In this document: piece after piece, positions 2,640 to 55,862 of the stretch
Numbering within the stretch: position 1 is the stretch's first letter
Layout: every line of letters begins with the position of its first letter
Origin: Escherichia coli
GTDB taxonomy: Bacteria > Pseudomonadota > Gammaproteobacteria > Enterobacterales > Enterobacteriaceae
Assembly: GCF_046105845.1 (NCBI RefSeq)
Contig: NZ_CP151004.1
Reading direction: 5' to 3' (one strand)
DNA: 64,000 bases
Notes under the pieces: model-generated
Database searches by the model: none
What the model saw: the letters and a program-made list of their open reading frames with translations, nothing else
Told to the model about the DNA's origin: nothing
Translations under genes and position numbers: made by a program

Positions 2640-3085
2640 AGAAGTGAAAAAACTGTGAGTAAGCGGGTGATAAATGGTAAAAGTCATCTTGCTATAACAA
2701 GGCTTGCAGTGGAATAATGAGGCCGTTTCCGTGTCCATCCTTGTTAAAACAAGAAATTTTACGGAATAACCCATTTTGCCCGACCGATCATCCACGCAGC
2801 AATGGCGTAAGACGTATTGATCTTTCAGGCAGTTAGCGGGCTGCGGGTTGCAGTCCTTACCGGTAGATGGAAATATTTCTGGAGAGTAATACCCAGTCTG
2901 TTTCTTTGATAATTGCGCTGTTTTTCCGCATGAAAAACGGGCAACCGACACTCTGCGCCTCTTTGAGCTGACGATAACCGTGAGGTTGGCGACGCGACTA
3001 GACACGAGGCCATCGGTTCACACCCGGAAAGGCGTTACTTTGCCCGCAGCTTAGTCGTCAATGTAAGAATAATGAGTAAGTTACG
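2640..3085 (+). promoter_or_regulatory. rne promoter and long structured 5' leader (RNase E autoregulation region); boundaries approximate
   Basis: About 450 bp of non-coding sequence directly upstream of rne; the long autoregulatory rne leader is established knowledge; promoter elements not mapped here. Confidence 0.4.
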
Positions 3086-9140: not shown

Positions 9141-10082
9141 TCAGAACAGATTATCAATGTTCATGCTGTAGGTTTTGCTCACCTTGTCGCTTATCGATTT
9201 CATCTGCTGAATCATGCTGGTGAGTTTGCGGGCATAGTGAGGATCGGTGGCATAGCCCGCGTCCTGTAGGGCCTGCGCCCCCTGCTCCGCACTCGCGGCG
9301 GTCGTCACGGCGGCGTAGCGCGGGTTACGCGTTAACAGCCCAACGTAATCCGACAATGCTTCCAGATACGAGCTGTAGACCCGAAACTTCGCTTTTACTT
9401 TCTTCGCTTCGCCATTTTCATATTCAGTCGTGGTGATTTCAGTGACTGGCCCTTTCCAGTTGCCAGAGGCTTTGACGCCAAACAGGTTATAGCTCGGCTC
9501 GCCGTTTTCACGGCGGATTTGCCGTTGTCCCCAGCCAGATTCCAGCGCCGCCTGAGCGAGGATCAAATGATGTGGCACACCGCTTTGCTGGCTTGCCAGT
9601 TGGGCGGGCAACGAGAGTTGCGCGAGGAATGCTTTACTGTCACCCGGCAGCGAATCATCGTAGTTACGTGGTACGGCCTTTTGCACCAGCTGCGAAAGCG
9701 TCTGATTTTGATAACGCACCACGGTTTCGAGCGGGAATTTCATCGGTGCTGCTGGCGTGGACTCCTCTGGCAATGGTTGTTCTGGCGTCATCTGTTTAAC
9801 CATCATCTCTGCCAGCCCCAGACCTTTGCCCGCCGTTATCTGTTGGGCAATCTGCTGGTCATACATACTGGTATACAGGCGAGTGTGCTCGCTGCTGAAC
9901 AGGCCATCTTTTGGTAAAGCGTCGCGCATGCTTTTCAACATCATCTGCACGAACATCCCTTCCACCTGGCGGGCCACCGGACGGATATTTGCCGCCGGAT
10001 CTTCGCCCGCTTTCGCCTTAAGTTCGTTGAGCGATTGTGCATCCCAGGCCGCACTTGCCAGTAGTTTGCTGTCGCTGATCAT
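9141..10082 (-). CDS. flgJ: Flagellar rod assembly protein / peptidoglycan hydrolase FlgJ
   Basis: Track ORF 9141-10112; known FlgJ starts [16 protein letters not shown] (313 aa), so start set to 10082; its ATG overlaps the flgI stop (ATGA). Confidence 0.9.
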   Translation of the reverse strand: MISDSKLLASAAWDAQSLNELKAKAGEDPAANIRPVARQVEGMFVQMMLKSMRDALPKDGLFSSEHTRLYTSMYDQQIAQQITAGKGLGLAEMMVKQMTPEQPLPEESTPAAPMKFPLETVVRYQNQTLSQLVQKAVPRNYDDSLPGDSKAFLAQLSLPAQLASQQSGVPHHLILAQAALESGWGQRQIRRENGEPSYNLFGVKASGNWKGPVTEITTTEYENGEAKKVKAKFRVYSSYLEALSDYVGLLTRNPRYAAVTTAASAEQGAQALQDAGYATDPHYARKLTSMIQQMKSISDKVSKTYSMNIDNLF

Positions 10083-11182
10083 CAGATGATTTCCAGTTTT
10101 GCCCGCAGACATCCCGCACTTTGCATTGATTGCAGTATGGACATCAGATCCATCGGCGTAGCGCCCAGCGCATTGAGCGCACGCACCACGTTATTGAGGC
10201 TGGCGCTGGAACGTACGCTTTGCAGCGAACCGCCGCTCTGGCGTAAATCGATCTGCGTTTGTGGCGTTACCACGGTCTGCCCACCACCAAACGGTGTATC
10301 TGGCTGGCTGACATTGGCCTGGCGATTAACTGTTACTGAGAGATTCCCCTGCGCTACCGCGCAGCTGTCGAGGGTCACTTCGCGATTCATCACCACCGAA
10401 CCAGTGCGCGAGTTAATCACTACTTTAGCGTCCTGCGGGGTAACATTAACCTGCATATTCTGGATATCGGCAAGGAAACGGACCTGGGAACTGTTGCCAC
10501 TCGGTACGCGCACCTGAATAGTCCGCGCATCTAACGCGGTGGCGCTGCCATATCCACGCACACGGTTGATGGTGTCAGCGATTTGCTGCGCCATACTGAA
10601 ATCTTCGTCGTTAAGTTGCAAATTAAGGGTATTCCCGACGCCAAACTGGCTGGGCAATTCACGTTCAATAACCGCACCATTGGTGATCCGTCCACCGTTC
10701 AGTTGGTTCACCTGAACACTGCTACCGCCAGCGGAGGCCCCTGCGCCGCCAACCAGAATATTGCCCTGCGCCAGCGCATACACCTGACTGTCAACGCCCT
10801 TAAGCGGTGTCATCAATAACGTACCGCCACGCAGACTTTTGGCATTTCCCATGGAAGAAACTACCACGTCAATGGTTTGCCCCTGACGTCCAAACGGTGG
10901 AAGTGACGCTGTCACCATAACCGCAGCGACGTTTTTTAGCTGCATATTAGTGCCCGTCGGAACGGTAATTCCCAGCTGTGAGAGCATGTTATTAAGCGTT
11001 TGTGTGGTAAACGGCGTCTGAGTTGTCTGGTCACCTGTACCATCAAGCCCCACCACCAGGCCATAGCCAATCAGTGAGTTTTGCCTTACCCCCTGAACAC
11101 TGGTGAGATCGCGAATACGCTCAGCCTGAGCCGCCGTGGTAACCAGTAAAAGAATTAATGCAGAGAGAAATTTAATCACCAC
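10082..11182 (-). CDS. flgI: Flagellar P-ring protein
   Basis: 366-aa ORF with signal peptide, matches FlgI. Confidence 0.95.
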
Positions 11183-15572: not shown

Positions 15573-15977
15573 TTATTGACCGAGCGTAAGGGTTTTCAGC
15601 ATCATGCTTTTCACCGTGTTGAGCACTTCAACATTGGCCTGATAGCTGCGTGACGCCGACATGGTGTTAACCATCTCTCCGACGACATCGACGTTTGGCA
15701 TTTTCACGTAGCCCTTTGCATCCGCCAGCGGATTACCCGGTTCATAAACCAGTTTGTCCGGGGCCTGACTTTCTATAACATCGGCAACCTTTACGCCGCC
15801 TGTCGCAGCACCTGGTGCAGCGTTAACCTGGAATACCACCTGTTTTGCCCGATATGGCTGTCCATCGGGACCGGTCACGCTATCAGCATTCGCCAGATTA
15901 CTGGCCGCCACGTTCAGGCGCTGGGACTGGGCAGTTAACGCCGACCCGGCGATATCAAAAATATTCAGCAGTGCCAT
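15573..15977 (-). CDS. flgC: Flagellar proximal rod protein
   Basis: 134-aa ORF matching FlgC. Confidence 0.95.
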
Positions 15978-15980
15978 CCG

Positions 15981-16397
15981 TTAATTTCCGCTCTGTAAAA
16001 CGTTCATCATGCCTTTGATTTGCCCGCTCAACGCGCTAAGGCTCATCTGGTATTGCAGGCTGTTATCGGCAAACTGGGTGCGTTCGCGATCCATATCGAC
16101 GGTATTACCGTCAAGCGAAGGCTGGTCCGGAATACGGTATTGCAGTTCTGCGGTAGGAGGCGTCAGCGCCTGCGCCGGAATGTGTTGCGTTGAGGTCATC
16201 GTCAGTGCAACCACGCTTGTTGCATCCCGTCCACGTTGCATGACTTTTTTAAGTTCACTGGCAAAATCGATATCGCGCGCCTGATAACCAGGGGTATCGG
16301 CATTGGCGATGTTTGCTGCCAGCACTTCCTGACGCTGGGCGCGCAGATTGAGCGCCTCTTGTTGAAAACGTAAGGCGGCGTCGAGCTTATCGAGCAT
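15981..16397 (-). CDS. flgB: Flagellar proximal rod protein
   Basis: Track ORF 15981-16406; known start [22 protein letters not shown] (138 aa). Confidence 0.92.
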
Positions 16398-17295: not shown

Positions 17296-17589
17296 ATGAG
17301 TATTGATCGCACTTCGCCTCTGAAGCCCGTAAGCACCGTTCAACCGCGCGAAACCATTGACGCGCCGGTAACGAACACCCGGGCGGCAAAAACAACCGCC
17401 TCCACCAGCACCAGTGTGACGTTAAGCGACGCGCAAGCAAAACTGATGCAACCCGGCAGCAGTGATATCAATCTTGAACGTGTCGAAGCGTTAAAACTGG
17501 CGATTCGTAACGGTGAACTAAAAATGGACACCGGCAAAATTGCCGATGCGCTGATCAACGAAGCGCAGCAAGACTTGCAGAGTAACTGA
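17296..17589 (+). CDS. flgM: Anti-sigma-28 factor
   Basis: 97-aa ORF matching FlgM. Confidence 0.95.
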
Positions 17590-17593
17590 TCGT

Positions 17594-18010
17594 ATGACGC
17601 GTCTTGCAGAGATCCTCGACCAGATGTCCGCTGTGCTTAACGATCTCAAAACGGTAATGGATCAAGAGCAGCAACATCTCTCTATGGGGCAGATCAACGG
17701 CAGCCAGTTGCAATGGATTACAGAACAAAAAAGCTCTCTGCTGGCGACGCTGGATTACCTCGAACAGTTACGCAGGAAAGAACCCAATTCAGCAAATAGC
17801 GTTGATATTAGTCAACGCTGGCAGGAAATTACTGTGAAAACGCAGCAACTACGCCAAATGAATCAACATAACGGCTGGTTACTGGAAGGACAGATTGAGC
17901 GCAATCAACAGGCGCTGGAAATGTTGAAACCGCATCAGGAACCGATGCTATATGGAGCGAACGGTCAGACCTCAACAAATCATCGCGGCAGTAAAAAGAT
18001 TTCGATCTGA
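17594..18010 (+). CDS. flgN: Flagellar export chaperone for FlgK/FlgL
   Basis: 138-aa ORF matching FlgN. Confidence 0.95.
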   Translation: MTRLAEILDQMSAVLNDLKTVMDQEQQHLSMGQINGSQLQWITEQKSSLLATLDYLEQLRRKEPNSANSVDISQRWQEITVKTQQLRQMNQHNGWLLEGQIERNQQALEMLKPHQEPMLYGANGQTSTNHRGSKKISI

Positions 18011-19694: not shown

Positions 19695-20618
19695 TTATTC
19701 ACTCATCGCATCGCGCCAGATCTTGTCAACGATACGTTGCGCCAGCACTGCCTGTTCGCCGGCGGTTTGCGGAACTGTCTGATTTTGCACGCATTCAATG
19801 AAGTGCCGCGCACAGCCGACAAATCCACGTTGCTCAAGCGTACTCTGCCAACCAGGAATCGGTTTATGCACTACGCCCTGCCCACGCTCCTCACGCCATT
19901 CGCGCATATCTGTAATGTCGATGAGCGCACCGTCAGTCACGGCCTGCACGGTTTCACGCTGACTTCCGGCACGGCGATGCATACAGGTGGTGATCTGCAA
20001 AGGACCGGCCGAAAAATGGTGCTCGGCAAACAGCATTTCGCCAGCGTCATTAGTCAGTAGCGTACCGCCATCCAGAGAGGCTTTACCGCCCGACAACCAC
20101 AGCGCGGTATCCACCACATGCAGATAATCATCCAGCAACGTGAAATAAAGATCGTGTGGCCCGACGCTATTGCTACGATGTTTATCCATTCTTAGCGAGG
20201 CTGCGGTGGCGAGTTGCGTTTTTAACTCACCGTAGAGTGGTGCGAAACGACGGTTAAAACCGACCATCAACGTCAGTTTTTTCCGTGCCGCAAGTTCCAC
20301 CAGCCGTTCAGCATCGCGCAGATTTTCTGCCAGCGGTTTATCGACACAGACATGTACCCCCGCATTGAGTAACGTACTGACCACGTCAAAGTGGCTGGCG
20401 GTGCTGGAATGCACAAAAACCGCATCGCAACTGGCGGCAAGGCTGGATAACGAATCGGCATAAGGAATGCGCCAGCTGTCACAAATTGGCAAGGCTTTCG
20501 CGCGCGTAGGCGACCACGCACCTTGTAACGTCCAGTCAGACGCTGCCGCCAGCACCGGTAACCACGCCTTTTGCGCGATGCCGCCTAACCCCACTACGCC
20601 GATACGTAATTTTTTCAC
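19695..20618 (-). CDS. yceM: Gfo/Idh/MocA-family oxidoreductase YceM (MviM)
   Basis: Track ORF starts at an upstream TTG; likely start is GTG at 20616-20618 (VKKLRIGVVGLGGIAQK...) preceded by a GGAGA RBS, giving 307 aa. Confidence 0.85.
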   Translation of the reverse strand: MKKLRIGVVGLGGIAQKAWLPVLAAASDWTLQGAWSPTRAKALPICDSWRIPYADSLSSLAASCDAVFVHSSTASHFDVVSTLLNAGVHVCVDKPLAENLRDAERLVELAARKKLTLMVGFNRRFAPLYGELKTQLATAASLRMDKHRSNSVGPHDLYFTLLDDYLHVVDTALWLSGGKASLDGGTLLTNDAGEMLFAEHHFSAGPLQITTCMHRRAGSQRETVQAVTDGALIDITDMREWREERGQGVVHKPIPGWQSTLEQRGFVGCARHFIECVQNQTVPQTAGEQAVLAQRIVDKIWRDAMSE

Positions 20619-20619
20619 T

Positions 20620-21862
<1,243 letters not shown>

Positions 21863-24749: not shown

Positions 24750-24816
24750 AGGAAAACGTTTCCGCTTATCCTTTGTGTCCGGCAAAAACATCCCTTCAGC
24801 CGGAGCATAGAGATTA
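24750..24816 (+). promoter_or_regulatory. pyrC control region: PurR operator and leader hairpin
   Basis: AGGAAAACGTTTCCGC (24750-24765) matches the PurR box; CCGG...CCGG hairpin (24779-24803) overlaps the RBS, as in the pyrC start-site-dependent translational control. Confidence 0.55.
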
Positions 24817-28381: not shown

Positions 28382-28948
28382 ATGTCATTCACAAATACCC
28401 CTGAACGCTATGGTGTTATATCTGCGGCCTTCCATTGGCTAAGCGCAATTATTGTCTACGGCATGTTTGCTTTAGGTCTGTGGATGGTCACGCTCAGTTA
28501 TTACGATGGCTGGTATCACAAAGCACCCGAACTGCATAAAAGCATCGGTATTTTGTTAATGATGGGGCTGGTTATTCGCGTTCTGTGGCGCGTCATATCT
28601 CCACCGCCGGGTCCGCTGCAAAGTTATTCGCCCATGACTCGTCTTGGCGCAAAGGCTGGACATCTCGCATTGTACTTATTGCTGTTTGCCATCGGCATCA
28701 GCGGCTATCTGATCTCAACTGCCGATGGTAAACCGATCAGCGTTTTTGGCTGGTTTGACGTCCCCGCGACCCTCGCCGACGCTGGCGCACAGGCTGACTT
28801 TGCCGGTGCCCTGCATTTTTGGCTCGCGTGGAGCGTCGTAGTACTGTCCGTTATGCACGGATTTATGGCCCTGAAGCATCATTTCATCGATAAAGACGAC
28901 ACTCTGAAGCGCATGCTGGGAAAGTCGTCATCTGACTATGGAGTATAA
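28382..28948 (+). CDS. yceJ: Cytochrome b561-family protein YceJ
   Basis: Track ORF 28307-28948; known start MSFTNTPERYGVISAAFHWLSA (188 aa), four TM helices with conserved His. Confidence 0.85.
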   Translation: MSFTNTPERYGVISAAFHWLSAIIVYGMFALGLWMVTLSYYDGWYHKAPELHKSIGILLMMGLVIRVLWRVISPPPGPLQSYSPMTRLGAKAGHLALYLLLFAIGISGYLISTADGKPISVFGWFDVPATLADAGAQADFAGALHFWLAWSVVVLSVMHGFMALKHHFIDKDDTLKRMLGKSSSDYGV

Positions 28949-28951
28949 AAA

Positions 28952-29527
28952 ATGAAAAAAAGCCTGCTTGGTTTAACCTTCGCTTCCCTGATGTTCTCTG
29001 CCGGTTCAGCGGTTGCCGCCGATTACAAAATTGACAAAGAAGGTCAGCACGCCTTTGTTAACTTCCGCATACAGCACCTTGGCTATAGCTGGTTATACGG
29101 CACCTTTAAAGATTTCGACGGTACTTTTACCTTTGATGAAAAAAATCCGGCTGCCGATAAAGTGAATGTGACAATTAACACCACCAGCGTCGATACTAAT
29201 CACGCCGAACGCGATAAACATCTTCGCAGTGCAGATTTCCTCAATACTGCAAAATATCCACAGGCAACATTCACCTCCACCAGCGTGAAGAAAGACGGTG
29301 ACGACCTGGATATTACCGGCGATCTGACGCTGAATGGCGTAACCAAACCCGTCACGCTGGAAGCGAAATTAATTGGTCAAGGCGACGACCCGTGGGGTGG
29401 TAAACGTGCAGGCTTCGAGGCCGAAGGCAAAATTAAGCTCAAGGACTTCAATATCAAAACAGATTTAGGTCCAGCTTCTCAGGAAGTGGATCTGATTATT
29501 TCAGTGGAAGGCGTACAGCAGAAGTAA
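28952..29527 (+). CDS. yceI: Periplasmic polyisoprenoid-binding protein YceI
   Basis: 191-aa ORF with signal peptide [22 protein letters not shown]. Confidence 0.92.
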
Positions 29528-31766: not shown

Positions 31767-32311
31767 ATCTCCCAAGCCGGATGCTTCTGAACTGTACCCC
31801 AAATGTTGGACATAATCTGACATCTGAAGGTGCAGTTTATGAAACATTCATTTGAAGTAAAACTTGCCGCTGTAAATCATTACCTGGCTGGTCATGCAGG
31901 CATCATTTCTACGGCAAAACTCTTTCAACTTTCTCACACCAGCCTCTCACACTGGATTAATCTTTTTCTTCTTCACGGTCCTCGGGCACTGGATTGCAGA
32001 CACAAGCGTAGCTATTCTCCTGAAGATAAACTTTGCGTGGTTCTTTATGCTCTCGGGCATTCTGAGTCTCTACCCCGGGTAGCTGCCCGGTTTAACATTC
32101 CCAGCCACAACACGGTTAAAAACTGGATAAAAGGCTACCGCAAATCTGGTAATGAGGCCTTTATCAGGCGCAGGAAGGAGAAAAGCATGACCCGTTCTGA
32201 TGATACCCATGAAAACGAGGCAAACATGACGCCGGAAGAGATGAAGAATGAGCTGCGTTATCTTCGCGCAGAAAATGCATATCTGAAAGCCATGCAGGAG
32301 CATCTCCTGGA

Positions 32312-33221
<910 letters not shown>

Positions 33222-33372
33222 CAGAAGGGCATCCGGCATTACCACAGCAAATCCCCCTGATTTAGCGATAAAAGCTCTCTGGATTGCGCCCCCTGGAAGT
33301 CGGGCGCATAATTAGTGTGCTTATCTTTTCTTCTTATGTTCACCGCGCCTGGCGCACCAACAGCGGATTGCT

Positions 33373-35300: not shown

Positions 35301-35448
35301 AAAAAAATACCGGCATAACGCCGGTATTTTTATTGGCTCGTTGTTTTTGCCGAATGCGGCGTGAACGCCTTATCCGACCTACAAAATCTTGCAAAATCAA
35401 AACATTGCAGGAGCGATGTAGGCCTGATAAGCGTAGCGCATCAGGCAA
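35301..35448. repeat. Bidirectional terminator hairpin plus REP elements between yceK and opgH
   Basis: A-run, ACCGGCATAACGCCGGT hairpin, T-run (35301-35334), followed by REP palindromes GCCGAATGCGGCGTGAACGCCTTATCCGACCTAC and GTAGGCCTGATAAGCGTAGCGCATCAGGC. Confidence 0.55.
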
Positions 35449-35456
35449 CTACGTTT

Positions 35457-39639
<4,183 letters not shown>

Positions 39640-41086: not shown

Positions 41087-42517
41087 TTACAATAACCATT
41101 CCACAGGCAATATCGACGCCAGTCTGACCATAACCCGCTTCCAGAAACTGGTGGCGGGTTCTTTTTTGAGAATAATCTCTTTCTTTGCATGACGATCAAC
41201 CCAGTTGATCCGTCCCCACCTGTCCAGACGGAGCTGCCAGGCCGCATCATACTGGCTCTGAATAAAGCGTTTATCAATTAACTGTGCCAGCGTTTCGCTC
41301 TCTATCACGAAGCCCATTTCAGTATTGAGCAATGTCGAACGCGGATCGAAATTGAAAGAGCCGATAAACACCGTTTTACCATCGATGCTAAAGGTTTTAG
41401 CATGCAGGCTGGCACCGGAATTACCGGTTATGCCGCGATCGTGTAACGTACTACTTTGTTCACGCGTCGGCTTGAGTTCATATAATTCCACGCCGTAGCG
41501 GAGCAATTTTTTGCGCCAGCGCGCGTATCCGGCATGGACGACAGCAACATCGTTAGCGGCAAGAGAATTGGTTAGGATCGCAATCTTTACTCCTTTTCTC
41601 ACCATCCGTAAGAGTTGCGCCACACCTGCGCGTGTCGGTACAAAATAGGAAGAGATAATATCGATGCGTTCACTGGGTGAGCCCATGATATCGAACAGGC
41701 GCTGCGGTAACAGTGAATGCCGTTTTGCCTTGCCCTCCCCTTTCGCCGGATCATCACTTAATAAACGTGTCTTCGCCCAGATAAGCGGCAACGTTCCATC
41801 AACCAGATGATTTATAAACGGGCTGGATTCCATTTTGCGTAAATAACGATGCGTAATGGCATCGTTATGCCAGGAGGCGGGTAACTCGATGCGATCCGCC
41901 ATTTCACCTTCCGGGACATCCAGCACCTGCTGTAAGGGTGAAACCGATTTGCAATACCAGTAGCGGGCGAAATCATCGGCAACGTCCTCTACAACTGGTC
42001 CTATTGCCATGACATCTAAATCCGAAAAAAGTGGCTCTTCCCCTGCACCAAAATAGGCATCACCAATATTTCGCCCCCCTACCAGCGTCACCACGCCATC
42101 GACAGTGAAACTTTTATTGTGCATACGGCGATTGAGACGGGAAAAGTCGGTGATATAACCAAGCGGACGTAGCAAGCGAAACGAGAAAGGATTAAAAAGC
42201 CGGACTTCAATGCGGGGATGACTGTCAAGCAAGCGTAAAATGTCGTCAAGCCCGGGTGTATTGTTGTCGTCCAGCAACAAACGGACGCGAACGCCACGCT
42301 TTGCTGCGGCTAACAGGGCGGAAAACAGTAACCGACCCGACATATCGTCCTGCCAGATGTAATACTGAACATCCAGCGTATGCTCTGCCATTTCGGCCAG
42401 ACGATACCGGGCGGCAAACGCATCCAGACTTTTCTCCAGAGGAAAAAGGCCACACTGACCGGGATGTTGCGAACACAGTGGCAGCACCGCGCTCGCCAGC
42501 CGGGGCAAATCATTCAT
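41087..42517 (-). CDS. clsC: Cardiolipin synthase C (YmdC), phospholipase D family
   Basis: Track ORF 41087-42577; probable start [17 protein letters not shown] at 42517; two HxK(x)4D PLD motifs ([12 protein letters not shown] and [12 protein letters not shown]). Confidence 0.85.
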
Positions 42518-43043
42518 CTCCTTGTTGAGTAAGGAGTCTTTCGTAGAGGTGGGCGTTTTCTTCATCATAACAGACAAAGTATACCTGTTCGGGTAAAGCG
42601 TGACGGGTAATAAATTCTGAAACGGTTTTTACTGCGATTTCAGCCGCTACCGCACGAGGGTAACCATAAACCCCAGTACTAATTGCAGGAAAAGCCACTG
42701 ACGTATAGCTGTTTGCCGCCACCAGTCGTAGGCTATTGAGATAGGCATCCTGCAAAAGCTGGTCTTCGTTTTGTTCACCACCACGCCAGACTGGCCCGAC
42801 GGTGTGCACTACGGCTTTAGCGGGAAGATCGCCTGCAAGCGTAATAACGGCATGCCCCGTAGGGCAATCGCCCTGCTGTTGCCTGACTTTTAAACAGGCA
42901 TCCAGCAGCGCCGGACCCGCTGCGCGATGAATGGCCCCATCGACGCCGCCGCCTCCCATTAATGACGGATTAGCCGCATTCACAATCACATCAACGGCCA
43001 GTTTGGTAATATCACCCTGCACAACATGAATACGCGTTTTCAT
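42510..43043 (-). CDS. ymdB: Macrodomain O-acetyl-ADP-ribose deacetylase YmdB
   Basis: 177-aa ORF matching YmdB (macro domain). Confidence 0.9.
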
Positions 43044-44912: not shown

Positions 44913-45666
44913 GTTGTCACCCTGGACCTGGTCGTACATTTAAGAAATTAAATCATTTCAACTTGGTTGTTAACGCAACCTGTATTTTGTTAACGCTGCG
45001 TTACGATGGAAAGTATGTCTGCGGAAATATTTTTAATAACTCACCCGCGCGTTGTATTTTTCTTTTTTTGTTCATACCAAAGTATTAAAACCCACGTAAA
45101 TACGCTGTTATCTACGCAAAAAAATATTTTGTTTTCTTTTAAATCTCCGTTTTCCGCAATCAAAAATCACCAGACAGCCATTCTTCTTGCCCGTCGCTGA
45201 TTGCTGCGATATGTCTTGCGCACAAGCCGTGACAAACCTCGTCTTTTTGCAGTAAAAAATTGTCCACGGAGGTGTGAAGAAAAAACAAGAACGTTTTACA
45301 TGACGAAAGGACTACACCGAAATATTTTTTATATGCATTATTAGTAAGTTAGCACCATTTGTATGATTTTTTAAAATTGTGCAATAAAAACCAAATGTAC
45401 AACTTTTCTATCATTTCTAAACTTAATAAAACCTTAAGATTAACATTTTAATATAACGAGTTACATTTAGTTACATGTTTAACACTTGATTTAAGATTTG
45501 TAATGGCTAGATTGAAATCAGATGTAATCCATTAGTTTTATATTTTACCCATTTAGGGCTGATTTATTACTACACACAGCAGTGCAACATCTGTCAGTAC
45601 TTCTGGTGCTTCTATTTTAGAGGCAGCTGTCAGGTGTGCGATCAATAAAAAAAGCGGGGTTTCATC
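44913..45666. promoter_or_regulatory. csgBAC / csgDEFG divergent intergenic control region
   Basis: 754-bp AT-rich divergent region between csgB and csgD; known from the literature to carry sigma-S promoters, multiple transcription-factor sites and the long csgD 5' UTR targeted by sRNAs. Confidence 0.6.
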
Positions 45667-46317
<651 letters not shown>

Positions 46318-46321
46318 AGCC

Positions 46322-46711
46322 ATGAAACGTTATTTACACTGGATTGTGGCGGCAGAATTTCTGTTCGCCGCAGGGAATCTTCACGCCGTTGAGGTAGAAG
46401 TCCCGGGATTGTTAACTGACCATACTGTTTCATCTATTGGCCATGATTTTTACCGAGCCTTTAGTGATAAATGGGAAAGTGACTATACGGGTAACTTAAC
46501 GATTAATGAAAGGCCCAGTGCACGATGGGGAAGTTGGATCACAATAACGGTCAATCAGGACGTTATTTTCCAGACTTTTTTATTCCCGTTGAAAAGAGAC
46601 TTCGAAAAAACTGTCGTCTTTGCACTGATTCAAACTGAAGAAGCACTAAATCGTCGCCAGATAAATCAGGCGTTATTAAGTACGGGCGATTTGGCGCATG
46701 ATGAATTCTAA
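46322..46711 (+). CDS. csgE: Curli secretion specificity factor CsgE
   Basis: 129-aa ORF matching CsgE. Confidence 0.93.
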
Positions 46712-51211: not shown

Positions 51212-51299
51212 GGTGAGGTGTCCGAGTGGCTGAAGGAGCACGCCTGGAAAGTGTGTATACGGCAACGTATCGGGGGTTCGAATCCCCCCCTCACCGCCA
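51212..51299 (+). tRNA. serX: tRNA-Ser (anticodon GGA), 88 nt with long variable arm
   Basis: GGTGAGGTGTCCGAGTGGCTGAAGGAGCACGCCTGGAAAGTGTGTATACGGCAACGTATCGGGGGTTCGAATCCCCCCCTCACCGCCA: acceptor stem pairs, anticodon loop CT-GGA-AA, T-loop GGTTCGAATCC, 3' CCA encoded. Confidence 0.92.
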
Positions 51300-51925
51300 T
51301 CTTTAAAGAAGAGCTCGTACGAAGGTACGGGCTTTTTTTTCGTATATTGCACACACCGGGGGATGAGAAGCCCCGACCGGGGTTCGACAACTGGCGACAG
51401 CCAGTTGGACAGACCGTGAACGCAGTGAGCGGGCTGCCCGCAGGGCGAGCGAAGCGAGTCAATCCCCCCTCACCGCCATCTTTAAAGAAGAGCTCGTACG
51501 AAGGTACGGGCTTTTTTTTCGTATATTGCACACACCGGGGGATGAGAAGCCCCGACCGGGGTTCGACAACTGGCGACAGCCAGTTGGACAGACCGTGAAC
51601 GCAGTGAGCGGGCTGCCCGCAGGGCGAGCGAAGCGAGTCAATCCCCCCTCACCGCCATCTTTAAAGAAGAGCTCGTACGAAGGTACGGGCTTTTTTTTCG
51701 TATATTGCACACACCGGGGGATGAGAAGCCCCGACCGGGGTTCGACAACTGGCGACAGCCAGTTGGACAGACCGTGAACGCAGTGAGCGGGCTGCCCGCA
51801 GGGCGAGCGAAGCGAGTCAATCCCCCCCTCACCGCCATCTTTAAAGAAGAGCTCGTACGAAAGTACGGGCTTCTTTTTCGTATATTGCACACACCGGGGG
51901 GATGAGAAGCCCCGATCGGGGTACT
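51281..51925. repeat. Tandem direct repeats, 179-180 bp unit, about 3.5 copies, each beginning with a copy of the serX 3' end and terminator hairpin
   Basis: Units start at 51301, 51480, 51659 and 51839 (CTTTAAAGAAGAGCTCGTACGAAGGTACGGGCTTTTTTTTCG...); copies near-identical; last copy degenerate (GAAAG loop, CTTCTTTTT); each unit ends with AATCCCCCCTCACCGCCATC resembling the tRNA T-arm/acceptor 3' half. Confidence 0.9.
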
Positions 51926-51928
51926 TAG

Positions 51929-52615
51929 TTAATGCAACGGTTCACCCTTTGTCGCCGCGGCTAATGGGCGAATTTTGTCACGGGTATCCCAGACCGGAGG
52001 GATTTCATCCAATTTAGTGACAGAAGCTCGTACAAAAGGCACCCGTGCAATAGTCATAATCGTATTCAACCAACGGTCACGAATAATGCGATCTGCCCTT
52101 TCATGACTCGGATCATCCAGCTCAATAACACAGACTATTTTGTTGTTCTTCTTTGAAATCAGAACATAATCCATTGCCATTCCATTATAAATTGCAAAGA
52201 AACGCTTTCTTTCTTCTTCGCTAAACTCGGGTTGTTCTGGAAAGTTGATCAAGCGCCCCAGAGAGACCTGGCAATGGATATGACAATAATGTCCAAACCA
52301 TTTCTCCAGATTATCAAAATAGATTTTTTCACAACGCGTAATTAACCACTCTTTTCCTTCCAATAAAATACCTTCGGCAACCATTCCCTGGAACAACTCA
52401 TCTCGTTCTTGCCAACGAGAGTCACGATAGGTTTTCTGCGGTGTATAGCTCCTTGTCGACGCCTTAGCCGCAGGGGAAGTTGCAGAGGAAGGGACTGGTT
52501 GCGATCTAGTGATGATTACCGATGAGGCAACTTTTCGGAGTGTCAATTTTCTGGCAACAGCAAAACCGGCGACAAATGCAATTGTCAAACAAGTTACAAA
52601 AACCATAAAGCTCAT
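51929..52615 (-). CDS. Hypothetical membrane-anchored protein (228 aa), function unknown
   Basis: ATG at 52613-52615 with AGGTGA RBS 9 nt upstream; N-terminal TM helix MSFMVFVTCLTIAFVAGFAVA, Ser/Pro-rich linker, C-terminal soluble domain with HYCHIHC and IELDDPSHERADRIIRDR; occupies the position of ycdU in K-12 (from memory) but identity not verified. Confidence 0.6.
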   Translation of the reverse strand: MSFMVFVTCLTIAFVAGFAVARKLTLRKVASSVIITRSQPVPSSATSPAAKASTRSYTPQKTYRDSRWQERDELFQGMVAEGILLEGKEWLITRCEKIYFDNLEKWFGHYCHIHCQVSLGRLINFPEQPEFSEEERKRFFAIYNGMAMDYVLISKKNNKIVCVIELDDPSHERADRIIRDRWLNTIMTIARVPFVRASVTKLDEIPPVWDTRDKIRPLAAATKGEPLH

Positions 52616-53127
52616 AATTAATCTTCACCTATCCATGTTGATTATATTTCATTACTAACGCTACTCGCTGTAGCGAGTTACATGCCAACAATTCAACGAA
52701 CTATATATAGTTAGTATCATGTTTTGATTATTACAACCATCCCTATTTTACCATTGCGGCTTGCCGTCCACAAAAAATAACAACACACAATATTAGCTGA
52801 AGAATTAATTAAGATTAACCTTATATTTTTAATATTATCCCTAAAAAATAAAATCAGGAGAATATATTCGGTGTTAATCAGTCAGTCAAATTATGGCCCA
52901 TTGCTGATTAAACCTCATACGCAAAATTGGCACCAGACCTCCTGTACAGGTTGAATGGCTGGAAAAAGATAGGCAAAAAACTCTCCGCGCTGGCGGCATT
53001 ACATTGGTCGGGTGCTATGACGAAAAATGCCTGGTAAAAGCATCTAAACCAGAATTCATTTCAGCTTATCAACACGCTCAAAGTCGCCCCCCAGAACGTT
53101 AACCTGAAGTGAAAGTCTTTGCTGTTA

Positions 53128-53159
53128 ATGAAATAAAACAAAGCCCGGTTCGCCCGGGC
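53128..53159 (-). terminator. Rho-independent terminator of phoH
   Basis: Minus-strand hairpin GCCCGG-GCGAA-CCGGGC followed by TTTGTTTTATTT, 20 bp after the phoH stop. Confidence 0.5.
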
Positions 53160-53177
53160 TCTGTACCGATAATACAC

Positions 53178-54101
53178 TTAACTGTATGCATGTAGCGTAC
53201 GTTGGCAAAGTGCCGAACGTACGCAATCCTCTTTACCGAATCGGACGATCCCGACCATTTCATCTTCTTCGAAACGTTCCAGCGCGTCACTTAATCCGGA
53301 TCGCACGCCGCGAGGCAAATCGCATTGCGTGATATCACCGTTGACGATAACCGTCACGTTCTCCCCGAGGCGGGTTAAAAACATTTTCATTTGCGCGGCA
53401 GTCACATTCTGCGCCTCGTCAAGAATGACGACTGCATTTTCAAAGGTACGTCCACGCATATAGGCGAACGGCGCAATTTCCACCTTCCCTATTTCCGGTC
53501 GCAGGCAGTACTGCATAAAGGAAGCCCCTAAGCGCCGGACCAGCACGTCGTAGACCGGGCGAAAATAGGGAGCAAACTTTTCTGCGATATCACCAGGTAA
53601 GAAGCCAAGATCTTCATCGGCTTGCAGAACTGGACGGGTGACGATAATCCTGTCGACATCCTTATGTATCAGGGCCTCTGCCGCTTTTGCTGCGCTGATC
53701 CAGGTTTTTCCGCACCCGGCTTCGCCCGTGGCGAATATCAGCTGCTTACTCTCAATAGCCTTCAGATAGTGCAATTGCGCTTCATTTCGCGCGAGGATGG
53801 GCGAGGTATCGCGACTGTCGCGGGCCATACCAATGGCTTCTACGCCGCTCATCTGCACAAGCGAGGTGACCGATTCTTCTTCACGCTGCTTATGGCTGCG
53901 CGAATCCCGTCTCAGCACACGTTTTGCCTCGCGACGAGCTTTGATCACTGCTTTTTGTCTTCCCATGGAGAGCACCTTGAGTTGTTTGTATTCATCACAC
54001 GCGCCGTTGGCAGCGCGATTATGCGCACGAACATCAGAGGGTTGGCTTCCTTGTAAGCCATAGTTTGCTTTTGGATAAAATGCCGAAAAACGGCTACGCA
54101 C
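53178..54101 (-). CDS. phoH: Phosphate starvation-inducible ATPase PhoH; N-terminal extent uncertain
   Basis: Longest in-frame ORF is 307 codons from GTG 54101 (first ATG at 53966, MGRQKAVIKARREAKR..., giving 262 aa); Walker A GEAGCGKT and PhoH core conserved; see finding on a possible 5' frameshift. Confidence 0.85.
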   Translation of the reverse strand: MRSRFSAFYPKANYGLQGSQPSDVRAHNRAANGACDEYKQLKVLSMGRQKAVIKARREAKRVLRRDSRSHKQREEESVTSLVQMSGVEAIGMARDSRDTSPILARNEAQLHYLKAIESKQLIFATGEAGCGKTWISAAKAAEALIHKDVDRIIVTRPVLQADEDLGFLPGDIAEKFAPYFRPVYDVLVRRLGASFMQYCLRPEIGKVEIAPFAYMRGRTFENAVVILDEAQNVTAAQMKMFLTRLGENVTVIVNGDITQCDLPRGVRSGLSDALERFEEDEMVGIVRFGKEDCVRSALCQRTLHAYS

Positions 54102-54585: not shown

Positions 54586-55857
54586 TTAAACCCGCAATAA
54601 CGCGCTTCCGAGATAATCGTTCGCGTTCTTCACTCCCGGCAGCGCAAAGAAATAGCCGCCACCGATAGGTTTGACATATTCCTCCAGCGCCTCGCCATTC
54701 AACCTTTTTTGTACTGTCAGGAAGCCCTTTTCCAGATCGTGTTGGTAGCAGACAAACAGTAGCCCCATATCCAGTTGTCCGGAGTTGGTGACGCCCAACG
54801 AATAACTGTAGCCACGACGCAGCATCAGGCTGGACTCACTCTCCGCCGTGCGGGGATTCGCCAGCCGGATATGGCTGTCCAGCGCAATCACCTTCCCTTC
54901 CGGATCGCTAGCGTAATCGGGAACATCATGCTCATGCTGCATGCCCAGCGGCGCACCGGTTTGCTTATCACGACCAAATATCGTCTGCTGCTCTTTCAGC
55001 GGCGTTCTGTCCCAAAATTCCACTCGAAACTGAATCAAGCGTACTGCCTGATAGCTGCCACCGATTGTCCACGCAGGCTCCTGCTGATCTGCCGTCACCC
55101 ACACCACTTTTTGCATCAACTTATCATTCTGGCTATCGGGATTGGCAGTGCCGTCTTTGAAACCCAGCAAATTAATCGGCGTCTCTTTGCCTTTACTACG
55201 CGCCGCGTGATCGGAAATAAACCCTTCCCGCTTCCAGCGCACACTGAGCAAATCCGGCGTGTGTTTGATGATATCGCGCAGCGCATGGATCACCGTGTCC
55301 TGGGTGTTGGCGCAAATCTGTAGCAACACATCACCATGACATAACGCCGCATCCAGCGAGTCGTTGGGGAAACGCGTCATCTTCTGCAGCTTTTTTGGCA
55401 TCTGTGGCGCAAGGCCAAAGCGCTCATTAAACAATGAGTGACCCACCGATAACGTGATGGTGAGATTATCGGGCGCAATGTAGCCGCCAAGAATGCCGGA
55501 ATCGAGTGGTGGCAGGCGCGGATTTGGCGTTTCTGGTGCTGCTCCGCCCTGAGTCAGAAAAGCAAAACGCTGAGTCAACAAGCGAAACAACCGCTCAAGA
55601 TCGGCTTTATCGCTGGCAAGCACATCAAACGCCACCAGCATCATTGCGGCCTGTTGTGGCGTCAGGATCCCTGCCTGATGCTCACCATAAAACGGCTGTT
55701 TCTCATTGCGTGCATCCGGTGAAAGCGTACCCGGCGCACTTTGCGTTTTTTGTGCATGAGCGACCGGACAACTTCCCGCCAGCGCCAGTGCACCAATCCC
55801 TTTCAGTAAACGTCGGCGTGACGGTTCATTCACGCCGTTTTCATCTTTATACTGCAT
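54586..55857 (-). CDS. efeB: Dye-decolorising (DyP-type) haem peroxidase / deferrochelatase EfeB, Tat-secreted
   Basis: 423-aa ORF with twin-arginine signal [23 protein letters not shown]. Confidence 0.93.
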
Positions 55858-55862
55858 AACGT

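What the first reader, a model, noticed from the sequence alone, without database searches (positions are those of the whole stretch)
10080..10084. Overlapping stop/start codons suggest translational coupling in several operons
flgI stop and flgJ start share ATGA (10080-10084). opgG stop (37993-37995) lies 2 bp from the opgH start (38000), and the ymdB stop (42510-42512) is 2 bp from the probable clsC start (42517). These are typical of co-translated operon partners and support the chosen start codons where they differ from the ORF track.
Basis: seen in the sequence. Interest (0 to 1): 0.1.

Follow-up and report, generated by a model that had tools for sequence, protein, structure and literature searches.

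The report
Stop/start overlaps at three operon junctions
Two of the three reported gene overlaps in this E. coli region (flgI-flgJ and opgG-opgH) are real, deeply conserved and of a well-known kind that lets one ribosome pass from gene to gene, whereas the third rests on a clsC start codon that the evidence does not support.

Summary
The window is E. coli chromosome, and the genes in question lie on the minus strand.

- **flgI/flgJ:** the junction is TGATG, a 1-nt overlap, not "ATGA". K-12 and PGAP annotate it this way. It is kept in 11 of 11 loci, down to 45% FlgJ identity.
- **opgG/opgH:** the junction is ATGAATAA, an 8-nt overlap. It is identical in 45 of 45 Enterobacterales loci. Published N-terminomics found the peptide MNKTTEY… from exactly this ATG. 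opgH has no Shine-Dalgarno sequence at working distance, and synonymous sites in the last ~30 nt of opgG are unusually conserved.
- **Mechanism:** both junctions fit the known -1 and -8 classes of overlap, which are thought to work by termination-reinitiation coupling. That coupling is inferred here, not shown.
- **ymdB/clsC:** ATGAATGA is in the sequence, but ATG 42517 is an unsupported start. AAGGAG abuts it with zero spacing, no annotation uses it, and only 8 of 22 related loci have a counterpart. K-12 uses TTG 42508 and PGAP uses ATG 42568. Comparative data and a weak ribosome-profiling signal favour the distal ATGs, 56-59 nt inside ymdB.

Overall the finding is ordinary and already annotated. 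The unresolved clsC start is the only point of modest interest.

The parts
10079..10084 (-). flgI/flgJ junction TGATGA. flgI stop TGA is 10084-10082, flgJ ATG is 10082-10080 (1-nt overlap), and a second in-frame flgI TGA is 10081-10079.
   Evidence: Sequence. K-12 and PGAP annotation. T[GA]ATG in all 10 other loci examined.
10082..11179 (-). flgI CDS (P-ring protein), the upstream cistron.
   Evidence: PGAP and K-12 annotation.
9141..10082 (-). flgJ CDS (313 aa), the downstream cistron. The longer ORF from ATG 10112 is not used.
   Evidence: Annotation. ATG 10112 is TTG or GTG, or absent, in other genera. One locus has the upstream frame closed after 1 codon.
10091..10094 (-). Weak Shine-Dalgarno-like GGAA inside the flgI Leu-Glu codons, 8 nt upstream of the flgJ ATG. 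It is GGAG in several distant homologues.
37993..38000 (-). opgG/opgH junction ATGAATAA. opgH ATG is 38000-37998 and opgG stop TAA is 37995-37993 (8-nt overlap).
   Evidence: Sequence. Annotation. Identical in 45 of 45 Enterobacterales loci. N-terminal peptide [27 protein letters not shown] mapped to this ATG (PMC13245402).
38001..38030 (-). Last ~30 nt of opgG before the opgH ATG. Nucleotide conservation here exceeds what coding needs, so this is a putative embedded initiation region. GGAG lies 17 nt upstream of the ATG, too far for a canonical SD.
   Evidence: Entropy of opgG third codon positions is 1.1 bits at -90..-31, 0.45 at -30..-16 and 0.29 at -15..+4. SD scan.
37993..39528 (-). opgG CDS as annotated (511 aa), the upstream cistron.
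35457..38000 (-). opgH CDS (847 aa), the downstream cistron. The longer ORF from GTG 38030 is not used.
   Evidence: The GTG is replaced by GCG, CGG, CAG or CCG in other genera.
42510..43043 (-). ymdB CDS (177 aa). Stop TGA is 42512-42510.
42515..42517 (-). Not supported.
   Evidence: AAGGAG abuts it with spacing 0. No annotation uses it. A homologous ATG is present in 8 of 22 loci. No TetRP signal was reported for it.
42506..42508 (-). TTG, the curated K-12 clsC start (473 aa), 1 nt after the ymdB stop.
   Evidence: AAGGAG lies 9 nt upstream. The codon is ATG in Citrobacter but TTA in E. albertii and not a start codon in Salmonella or the Enterobacter group.
42563..42568 (-). ATGATG, the distal candidate clsC starts (493 or 492 aa; 59- or 56-nt overlap with ymdB). 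This is the PGAP start and the site of the TetRP signal.
   Evidence: PGAP in four genomes. TetRP -57 signal, flagged inconclusive (PMC4909307). Present in 21 of 22 loci, and the only canonical start in five genera. Retained in L018 and L019 without YmdB coding constraint.
42518..42536 (-). CTCCTT (42536-42531), a 7-nt loop, then AAGGAG (42523-42518). This small hairpin would mask the SD-like motif inside the ymdB 3' end.
   Evidence: Present in the MFE and centroid folds, but z = -0.4 against shuffles. Not conserved outside E. coli and E. fergusonii.
41087..42568 (-). clsC CDS at its PGAP extent. The 5' end is unresolved (42568, 42565 or 42508).

Best explanation
flgI/flgJ (UGAUG, -1) and opgG/opgH (AUGAAUAA, -8) are genuine, anciently conserved stop/start overlaps inside single operons. 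The most likely mechanism is translational coupling by termination-reinitiation.
- A ribosome that releases FlgI or OpgG still holds the mRNA with the next AUG 0-7 nt away.
- It, or its 30S subunit, re-initiates there.
- This supplies ribosomes to downstream cistrons whose own initiation signals are weak (flgJ has GGAA at 8 nt) or missing (opgH has no SD within 3-12 nt).

Shown: the geometry, the start codons, the conservation, and the OpgH N-terminus. Inferred: the coupling itself.

The third junction is different. The real clsC start is more probably the distal ATGATG (42568/42565), 56-59 nt inside ymdB. The curated K-12 TTG 42508 (+1 spacing, good SD) is the main alternative, and it may also be a second start.
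For: Geometry and annotation.

flgI/J:
- The -1 overlap is kept in Salmonella, two Citrobacter species and five homologues of 45-64% identity.
- The FlgJ N-terminus diverges freely across these loci.

opgG/H:
- ATGAATAA is present in 45 of 45 loci.
- Synonymous-site entropy falls from ~1.1 to 0.29 bits on approach to the junction.
- No SD lies at functional spacing.
- The N-terminal peptide begins at this ATG (PMC13245402).
- The two genes are co-transcribed (PMC3723540).

Literature:
- -4, -1 and -8 are the enriched spacings, and -8..+6 is the termination-reinitiation window.
- Native E. coli overlapping pairs have been shown to be coupled (PMC6728339, PMC10666635, PMC12548453).

clsC:
- AAGGAG has spacing 0 to ATG 42517 and 9 nt to TTG 42508.
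- Salmonella, Leclercia, Enterobacter ENT03, Pseudenterobacter and Intestinirhabdus have only the distal canonical starts.
- E. albertii has TTA at the K-12 start position.
- The distal ATG is retained in L018 and L019, where the ymdB-like sequence around it is a decayed relic.
- The clsC frame is stop-free over the last 21 codons in 19 of 20 loci, against 42.5% of control windows.
- TetRP detected a signal at -57.
- PGAP and most gene callers give 493-495 aa.
Against: - No experiment on flgI/J or opgG/H coupling was found in the searched library.
- One of five native E. coli overlapping pairs tested by Huber et al. (bioBF) initiated de novo, so overlap alone does not prove coupling.
- The -8 spacing is reported to be less efficient than -4 or -1.
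- For clsC, the distal ATGs and the open frame are partly forced by conserved YmdB residues (Tyr-Asp-Glu-Glu).
- The TetRP signal was flagged 'not conclusive' by its authors.
- Citrobacter, especially C. werkmanii with its upstream frame closed, clearly starts at the position of the K-12 TTG.
- E. coli and E. fergusonii carry a strong, well-spaced SD for that TTG.
- Gene callers favour long ORFs, so their 493-aa calls are not independent evidence.
Confidence: 0.7

Rival explanations
1. The overlaps are passive products of genome compaction and stop-codon drift. flgJ and opgH are initiated de novo by free 30S subunits, independently of upstream translation.
For: - bioBF, a native E. coli ATGA pair, initiated de novo in reporter assays (PMC6728339).
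- flgJ has an SD-like GGAA/GGAG at 8-10 nt.
- No coupling experiment exists for these pairs in the library.
- The local folds are not unusually stable.
Against: - The register is exact in 11 of 11 and 45 of 45 loci while the flanking N-terminal codons diverge.
- opgH lacks any SD at 3-12 nt.
- Synonymous sites of opgG are constrained near the junction.
- The -1 and -8 spacings are specifically enriched genome-wide.
Confidence: 0.2
2. clsC starts at ATG 42517 and is coupled to ymdB through an 8-nt ATGAATGA overlap, like opgG/opgH.
For: - The motif is present.
- It is kept in E. coli, E. fergusonii and E. albertii.
- -8 is a recognised coupling spacing.
- E. albertii has lost the TTG but keeps this ATG.
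Against: - The SD abuts the ATG with spacing 0.
- No annotation uses it.
- Only 476-aa minority calls exist in databases, and those are Citrobacter-like.
- The ATG derives from the YmdB Gly-Asp-Glu codons and is missing in 14 of 22 loci, including Salmonella.
- No TetRP peak was reported there.
Confidence: 0.08
3. clsC starts at the curated K-12 TTG 42508, 1 nt after the ymdB stop. It is driven by the AAGGAG motif 9 nt upstream. Ribosomes finishing ymdB open the CTCCTT/AAGGAG hairpin, or re-initiate directly, and so couple the two genes.
For: - K-12 curation.
- This candidate has the best SD energy and spacing of all.
- The hairpin appears in the MFE and centroid folds.
- Citrobacter has ATG at this position with TGAtATG or ATGA, and C. 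werkmanii has no alternative.
- Cedecea and Buttiauxella also show +1 spacing, to a GTG.
Against: - E. albertii has TTA here and a broken SD.
- Salmonella and the Enterobacter group have no start codon at this position.
- The hairpin is not significant against shuffles and is not conserved.
- TetRP reads were 0/0/5.7 here against 0/30/16 at -57.
Confidence: 0.3

Closest known systems
[quoted passage not shown] 2019/2023, and classically trpBA)
   Same: Co-directional operon partners. Spacing lies in the -8..+6 window. The downstream initiation region is embedded in the upstream ORF. The overlap is conserved.
   Different: The tested pairs are mostly -4 (ATGA). Here the spacings are -1 and -8, and no reporter test exists for these pairs. 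opgH lacks the SD that four of the five tested E. coli pairs needed.
Phase-1 long overlaps, and the MS2 coat/lysis pair (-50 nt) discussed by Brown & Wade 2025
   Same: If clsC starts at the distal ATGs, its overlap with ymdB (-56 or -59) is a long phase-1 overlap of the retained class. Any coupling would then need RNA unfolding or back-scanning rather than simple re-initiation.
   Different: It is not shown that the distal ATG is used in E. coli, and there is no evidence of coupling at this distance for ymdB-clsC.
Start-codon mis-annotation cases re-mapped by initiation profiling (TetRP, Ribo-RET, N-terminomics)
   Same: It also appears in the TetRP list of alternative starts.
   Different: The TetRP call was inconclusive because the site lies inside the translated ymdB ORF. 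No N-terminal peptide is on record.

Membership tests
Termination-reinitiation-coupled overlapping gene pairs | Two co-directional neighbouring genes on one transcript | tested here: met
   The genes share a strand and overlap or abut. No terminator-like site lies on the minus strand at the junctions. opgGH is described as co-transcribed (PMC3723540). That flgB-J and ymdB-clsC are operons rests on established knowledge and on the title of Sawasato & Bogdanov 2024.
Termination-reinitiation-coupled overlapping gene pairs | Stop-to-start spacing within about -8 to +6 nt | tested here: met
   flgI/J is -1 and opgG/H is -8. For ymdB/clsC the answer depends on the unresolved start: +1, -8, -56 or -59.
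Termination-reinitiation-coupled overlapping gene pairs | The downstream start codon is the one actually used | tested here: met
opgH has an N-terminal peptide. flgJ has 11 of 11 conservation and a closed upstream frame in L096.
Termination-reinitiation-coupled overlapping gene pairs | Downstream translation depends on ribosomes reaching the upstream stop codon | not testable with these tools
   This needs a two-reporter assay with premature stop codons and mRNA quantification. No such data were found in the library.
Termination-reinitiation-coupled overlapping gene pairs | Shine-Dalgarno motif inside the upstream ORF at functional spacing (frequent in the family, not obligatory) | tested here: inconclusive
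   flgJ has weak GGAA at 8 nt, which is GGAG in some homologues. opgH has none at 3-12 nt, with GGAG at 17 nt.
   The functional flgI stop shares only its A with the ATG (TGATG). The ATGA string at 10082-10079 involves a second, redundant in-frame TGA.
-8 overlap class (NTGNNTRR) | The start codon lies 5 nt upstream of the stop codon in the +1 phase, and the arrangement is conserved | tested here: met
   opgG/opgH has ATGAATAA in 45 of 45 loci. The same string type at ymdB/clsC (ATGAATGA) is not conserved as a start.

The most novel reading that the evidence does not exclude
The real E. coli clsC start codon may be the ATGATG 56-59 nt inside ymdB (window 42568/42565). In that case the curated K-12 ClsC (473 aa) lacks 19-20 N-terminal residues and its native initiation region. 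clsC-only clones would then be truncated. This would give a cis explanation for why including ymdB DNA raises ClsC output, which a 2021 review calls an 'unknown mechanism' (PMC8027125). The title of a 2024 paper says the YmdB product is not required for ClsC's substrate specificity.
Probability: 0.5. Interest if true: 0.35.

Novelty: already known. Interest (0 to 1): 0.17.

Why it matters
For flgI/J and opgG/H nothing changes. The overlaps are already in the curated annotation and belong to textbook classes. The new points are their depth of conservation and an initiation region for opgH that lacks an SD yet is sequence-constrained, which makes opgGH a clean natural test case for -8 coupling.

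The practical value lies in clsC. Which start is real decides two things. It sets the sequence of the enzyme people clone. It may also explain the puzzling dependence of ClsC output on neighbouring ymdB DNA.

Tried and rejected
- **SD-masking hairpin.** CTCCTT/AAGGAG at the ymdB-clsC junction is predicted, but it is no more stable than shuffled sequence (z = -0.4) and is not conserved. I kept it only as a minor feature.
- **Folds of the other two junctions.** These show no unusual structure (z = -0.1 and +1.8).
- **Rfam.** No family matches at any junction.
- **Terminator and promoter scan.** Nothing exceeds the shuffle expectation.
- **Papers not held.** Tan et al. 2012 (PMC3478633) and Sawasato & Bogdanov 2024 (PMC11678504) could not be read. 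What those clones contained is therefore unknown to me.
- **Initiation and N-terminal datasets.**
  - The Ribo-RET preprint has no supplements held.
  - The Salmonella riboproteogenomics supplements have no entries for flgJ, opgH or clsC.
  - TRAINSPOTTER has no rows for flgJ, ymdB or clsC, and that file was truncated when stored.
- **Enrichment of overlaps in this region.** Rejected: only 2 of 36 co-directional pairs overlap.
- **Longer ORF starts.** flgJ ATG 10112, opgH GTG 38030 and clsC TTG 42577 were considered. The first two are rejected on conservation. The last sits with an AGGT 5 nt upstream and cannot be fully excluded, but no annotation uses it.

Full report
**Identity of the window.** The window is E. 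coli chromosome. A 3-kb piece around the first junction is 100% identical to strain VCSW5 and matches 5,425 of 5,426 complete E. coli genomes. The gene order is rpmF-yceD…rne, flgLKJIHGFEDCB, flgAMN, murJ…opgHG, opgC, clsC-ymdB-ymdA, csg…putA. All three junctions in the finding are on the minus strand, so I read them in gene orientation.

**What is in the sequence: flgI/flgJ.** Positions 10084→10080 read TGATG.
- The flgI stop is TGA 10084-10082 and the flgJ ATG is 10082-10080, so exactly one base is shared.
- The next flgI-frame codon (10081-10079) is a second TGA.

**What is in the sequence: opgG/opgH.** Positions 38000→37993 read ATGAATAA. The opgH ATG lies upstream of the opgG TAA, giving an 8-nt overlap.

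**What is in the sequence: ymdB/clsC.** Positions 42517→42510 read ATGAATGA, so the string exists. The clsC frame holds five possible starts:
- TTG 42577
- ATG 42568
- ATG 42565
- ATG 42517
- TTG 42508

**Annotation.** Curated K-12 and NCBI's pipeline agree on flgJ (313 aa, -1) and opgH (847 aa, -8). They disagree on clsC.
- K-12 starts at the TTG (42508; 473 aa; 1 nt after the ymdB stop).
- PGAP starts at ATG 42568 (493 aa; 59-nt overlap) in all four other genomes I checked.

**Is it more than chance?** It is not, by count. In the K-12-annotated part of the region only 2 of 36 co-directional neighbour pairs overlap, and 8 fall within -8..+6 nt. The genome-wide figure is about 15% overlapping pairs (PMC6728339). 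It is, by conservation.

**Conservation of flgI/flgJ.** I fetched Salmonella, Citrobacter farmeri, C. koseri and five homologues of only 45-64% FlgJ identity.
- All ten loci have FlgI ending on the first base of the FlgJ ATG (TGATG in eight, TAATG in two).
- The FlgJ N-terminus varies freely ([42 protein letters not shown]).
- In one locus the upstream frame closes after one codon.
- The E. coli upstream ATG 10112 is TTG or GTG, or absent, elsewhere.

**Conservation of opgG/opgH.** A single scan for ClsC relatives with 10-kb flanks also brought in opgGH.
- 45 of 45 Enterobacterales loci, from Escherichia to Pantoea, Erwinia and Acerihabitans, carry the identical ATGAATAA. OpgH identity across them falls to 72%.
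- The alternative GTG 38030 is not conserved.
- The entropy of opgG third codon positions falls from about 1.1 bits (-90..-31) to 0.45 (-30..-16) and 0.29 (-15..+4).
- opgH third positions just after the junction are at 1.55 bits.
- There is therefore nucleotide-level constraint on the last ~30 nt of opgG beyond what the protein requires.

**Experimental N-terminus of OpgH.** The TRAINSPOTTER N-terminomics table lists b1049 (mdoH/opgH) with peptide [27 protein letters not shown]. This covers residues 1-27 and maps to NC_000913:1110863-1110865, with ribosome-profiling initiation support (PMC13245402). No rows exist for FlgJ, YmdB or ClsC.

**Mechanism.**
- The review by Brown & Wade and the surveys by Huber et al. 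identify -4, -1 and -8 as the enriched spacings.
- They place efficient termination-reinitiation at about -8..+6 nt, and show coupling for native E. coli overlapping pairs. One exception initiates de novo.
- flgJ has only a weak GGAA 8 nt upstream, which is GGAG in several homologues.
- opgH has no SD at 3-12 nt, and its nearest GGAG is 17 nt away.
- A downstream cistron with a poor initiation region of its own, locked in register with the upstream stop, is the expected signature of coupling.
- I therefore take termination-reinitiation as the most likely mechanism for these two pairs.
- This step is inferred. I found no experiment on either pair, and local RNA folds are unremarkable.

**clsC: the case against ATG 42517.**
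- The AAGGAG motif (42523-42518) lies directly against ATG 42517 (spacing 0) but 9 nt before TTG 42508.
- ATG 42517 arises from the YmdB C-terminal codons GGA-GAT-GAA.
- A homologous ATG exists in only 8 of 22 Enterobacteriaceae ymdB-clsC loci.

**clsC: the case for the distal ATGs.**
- The distal ATG cluster is present in 21 of 22 loci.
- Leclercia, Enterobacter ENT03, Pseudenterobacter, Intestinirhabdus and Salmonella have no ATG, GTG or TTG between that cluster and the family-wide TRLGRAI motif.
- In two genomes (L018, L019) an intact ymdB ends about 190 nt upstream. Only a decayed relic of a ymdB 3' end precedes clsC, yet the ATG is still there.
- The clsC frame is stop-free over the last 21 codons in 19 of 20 loci, against 42.5% of control windows in the same frame.
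- E. albertii has TTA at the K-12 start position and a broken SD.
- Tetracycline ribosome profiling reported an alternative clsC (ymdC) start at ATG -57 (window 42565), with reads 0/30/16 against 0/0/5.7 at the TTG. Its authors flagged this as inconclusive because the site lies inside ymdB (PMC4909307).

**clsC: the case for TTG 42508.**
- Citrobacter has ATG at the TTG position with TGAtATG or ATGA, and C. werkmanii has the upstream frame closed.
- E. coli and E. fergusonii have a strong, well-spaced SD for the TTG.
- The distal ATGs are partly dictated by conserved YmdB residues.

**clsC: my estimate for E. coli.** Dual use is possible.

**A possible consequence.** A 2021 review states that clsC clones containing ymdB give more ClsC 'by an unknown mechanism' (PMC8027125). 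[quoted passage not shown] If the true start and initiation region lie inside ymdB, a cis explanation follows. I could not read either primary paper, so this remains a hypothesis.

**Verdict.**
- The two solid overlaps are already annotated and belong to known classes.
- The finding as a whole is ordinary, and the unresolved clsC start is a modest side-product.

Noticed in passing
window 31770-33370: About 1.4 kb between lpxL and mdtG that is absent from K-12 and VCSW5. It holds two ORFs, 31830-32360 (HTH transposase domains) and 32465-33187 (rve integrase core), so it is an IS3-family insertion sequence with the usual split orfA/orfB.
   Followed up: partly
window 20618-20620, 15977-15981, 28948-28952, 46317-46322, 17589-17594, 55857-55863: Six more co-directional pairs lie within the spacing window associated with coupling but do not overlap: yceH/yceM (+1, TAAAGTG), flgB/flgC (+3), yceJ/yceI (+3), csgD/csgE (+4), flgM/flgN (+4) and efeO/efeB (+5).
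   Followed up: partly
L099 and L100 (window equivalent 42672-42675): Public assemblies, with the contig seen in 20 or more samples, carry a 651-aa fused YmdB-ClsC ORF. It arises from loss of one G in a GGGG run of ymdB plus a GTA>GTT change that removes a TAA in the clsC frame. This is a natural lineage with disrupted ymdB and clsC read through from the ymdB start.
   Followed up: partly
L018 about 9900-9995; L019 about 9900-9995: In an Enterobacteriaceae MAG and in Phytobacter, an intact ymdB ends about 190 nt upstream of clsC. A decayed second copy of a ymdB 3' end (…QIYxxCYD…) sits directly in front of clsC.
   Followed up: partly
L051-L083, about 60-150 nt upstream of the ClsC match: Distant ClsC homologues (Burkholderiales, Alcanivorax and others) have a longer N-terminus with a lipobox-like L-x-G-C and a conserved LPSLE.R motif. 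The enterobacterial proteins lack this N-terminus entirely.
   Followed up: no
window 59069-60412: A 447-aa ORF between efeU and putP has no Pfam match and is annotated as hypothetical in VCSW5.
   Followed up: partly
window 51212-53200: Between tRNA-Ser (51212-51299) and phoH the window has only a DUF2726 gene (51929-52615). From memory, K-12 carries pgaABCD, ycdT and ycdU in this interval, so this looks like a strain-specific replacement. I did not check it against the K-12 record here.
   Followed up: no
window 2725-3061, 696-864, 24767-24816, 45520-45611, 35383-35425, 53183-53376: Rfam matches at gathering score: rne 5' UTR element, SraB sRNA (minus strand), PyrC leader, ES056 upstream of csgD, ES036/CssrF just downstream of opgH, and Ysr251 antisense to phoH.
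   Followed up: no
window 39528-39546: opgG also has a longer ORF, from ATG 39546 (517 aa), than the annotated start at 39528 (511 aa). I did not evaluate this.
   Followed up: no
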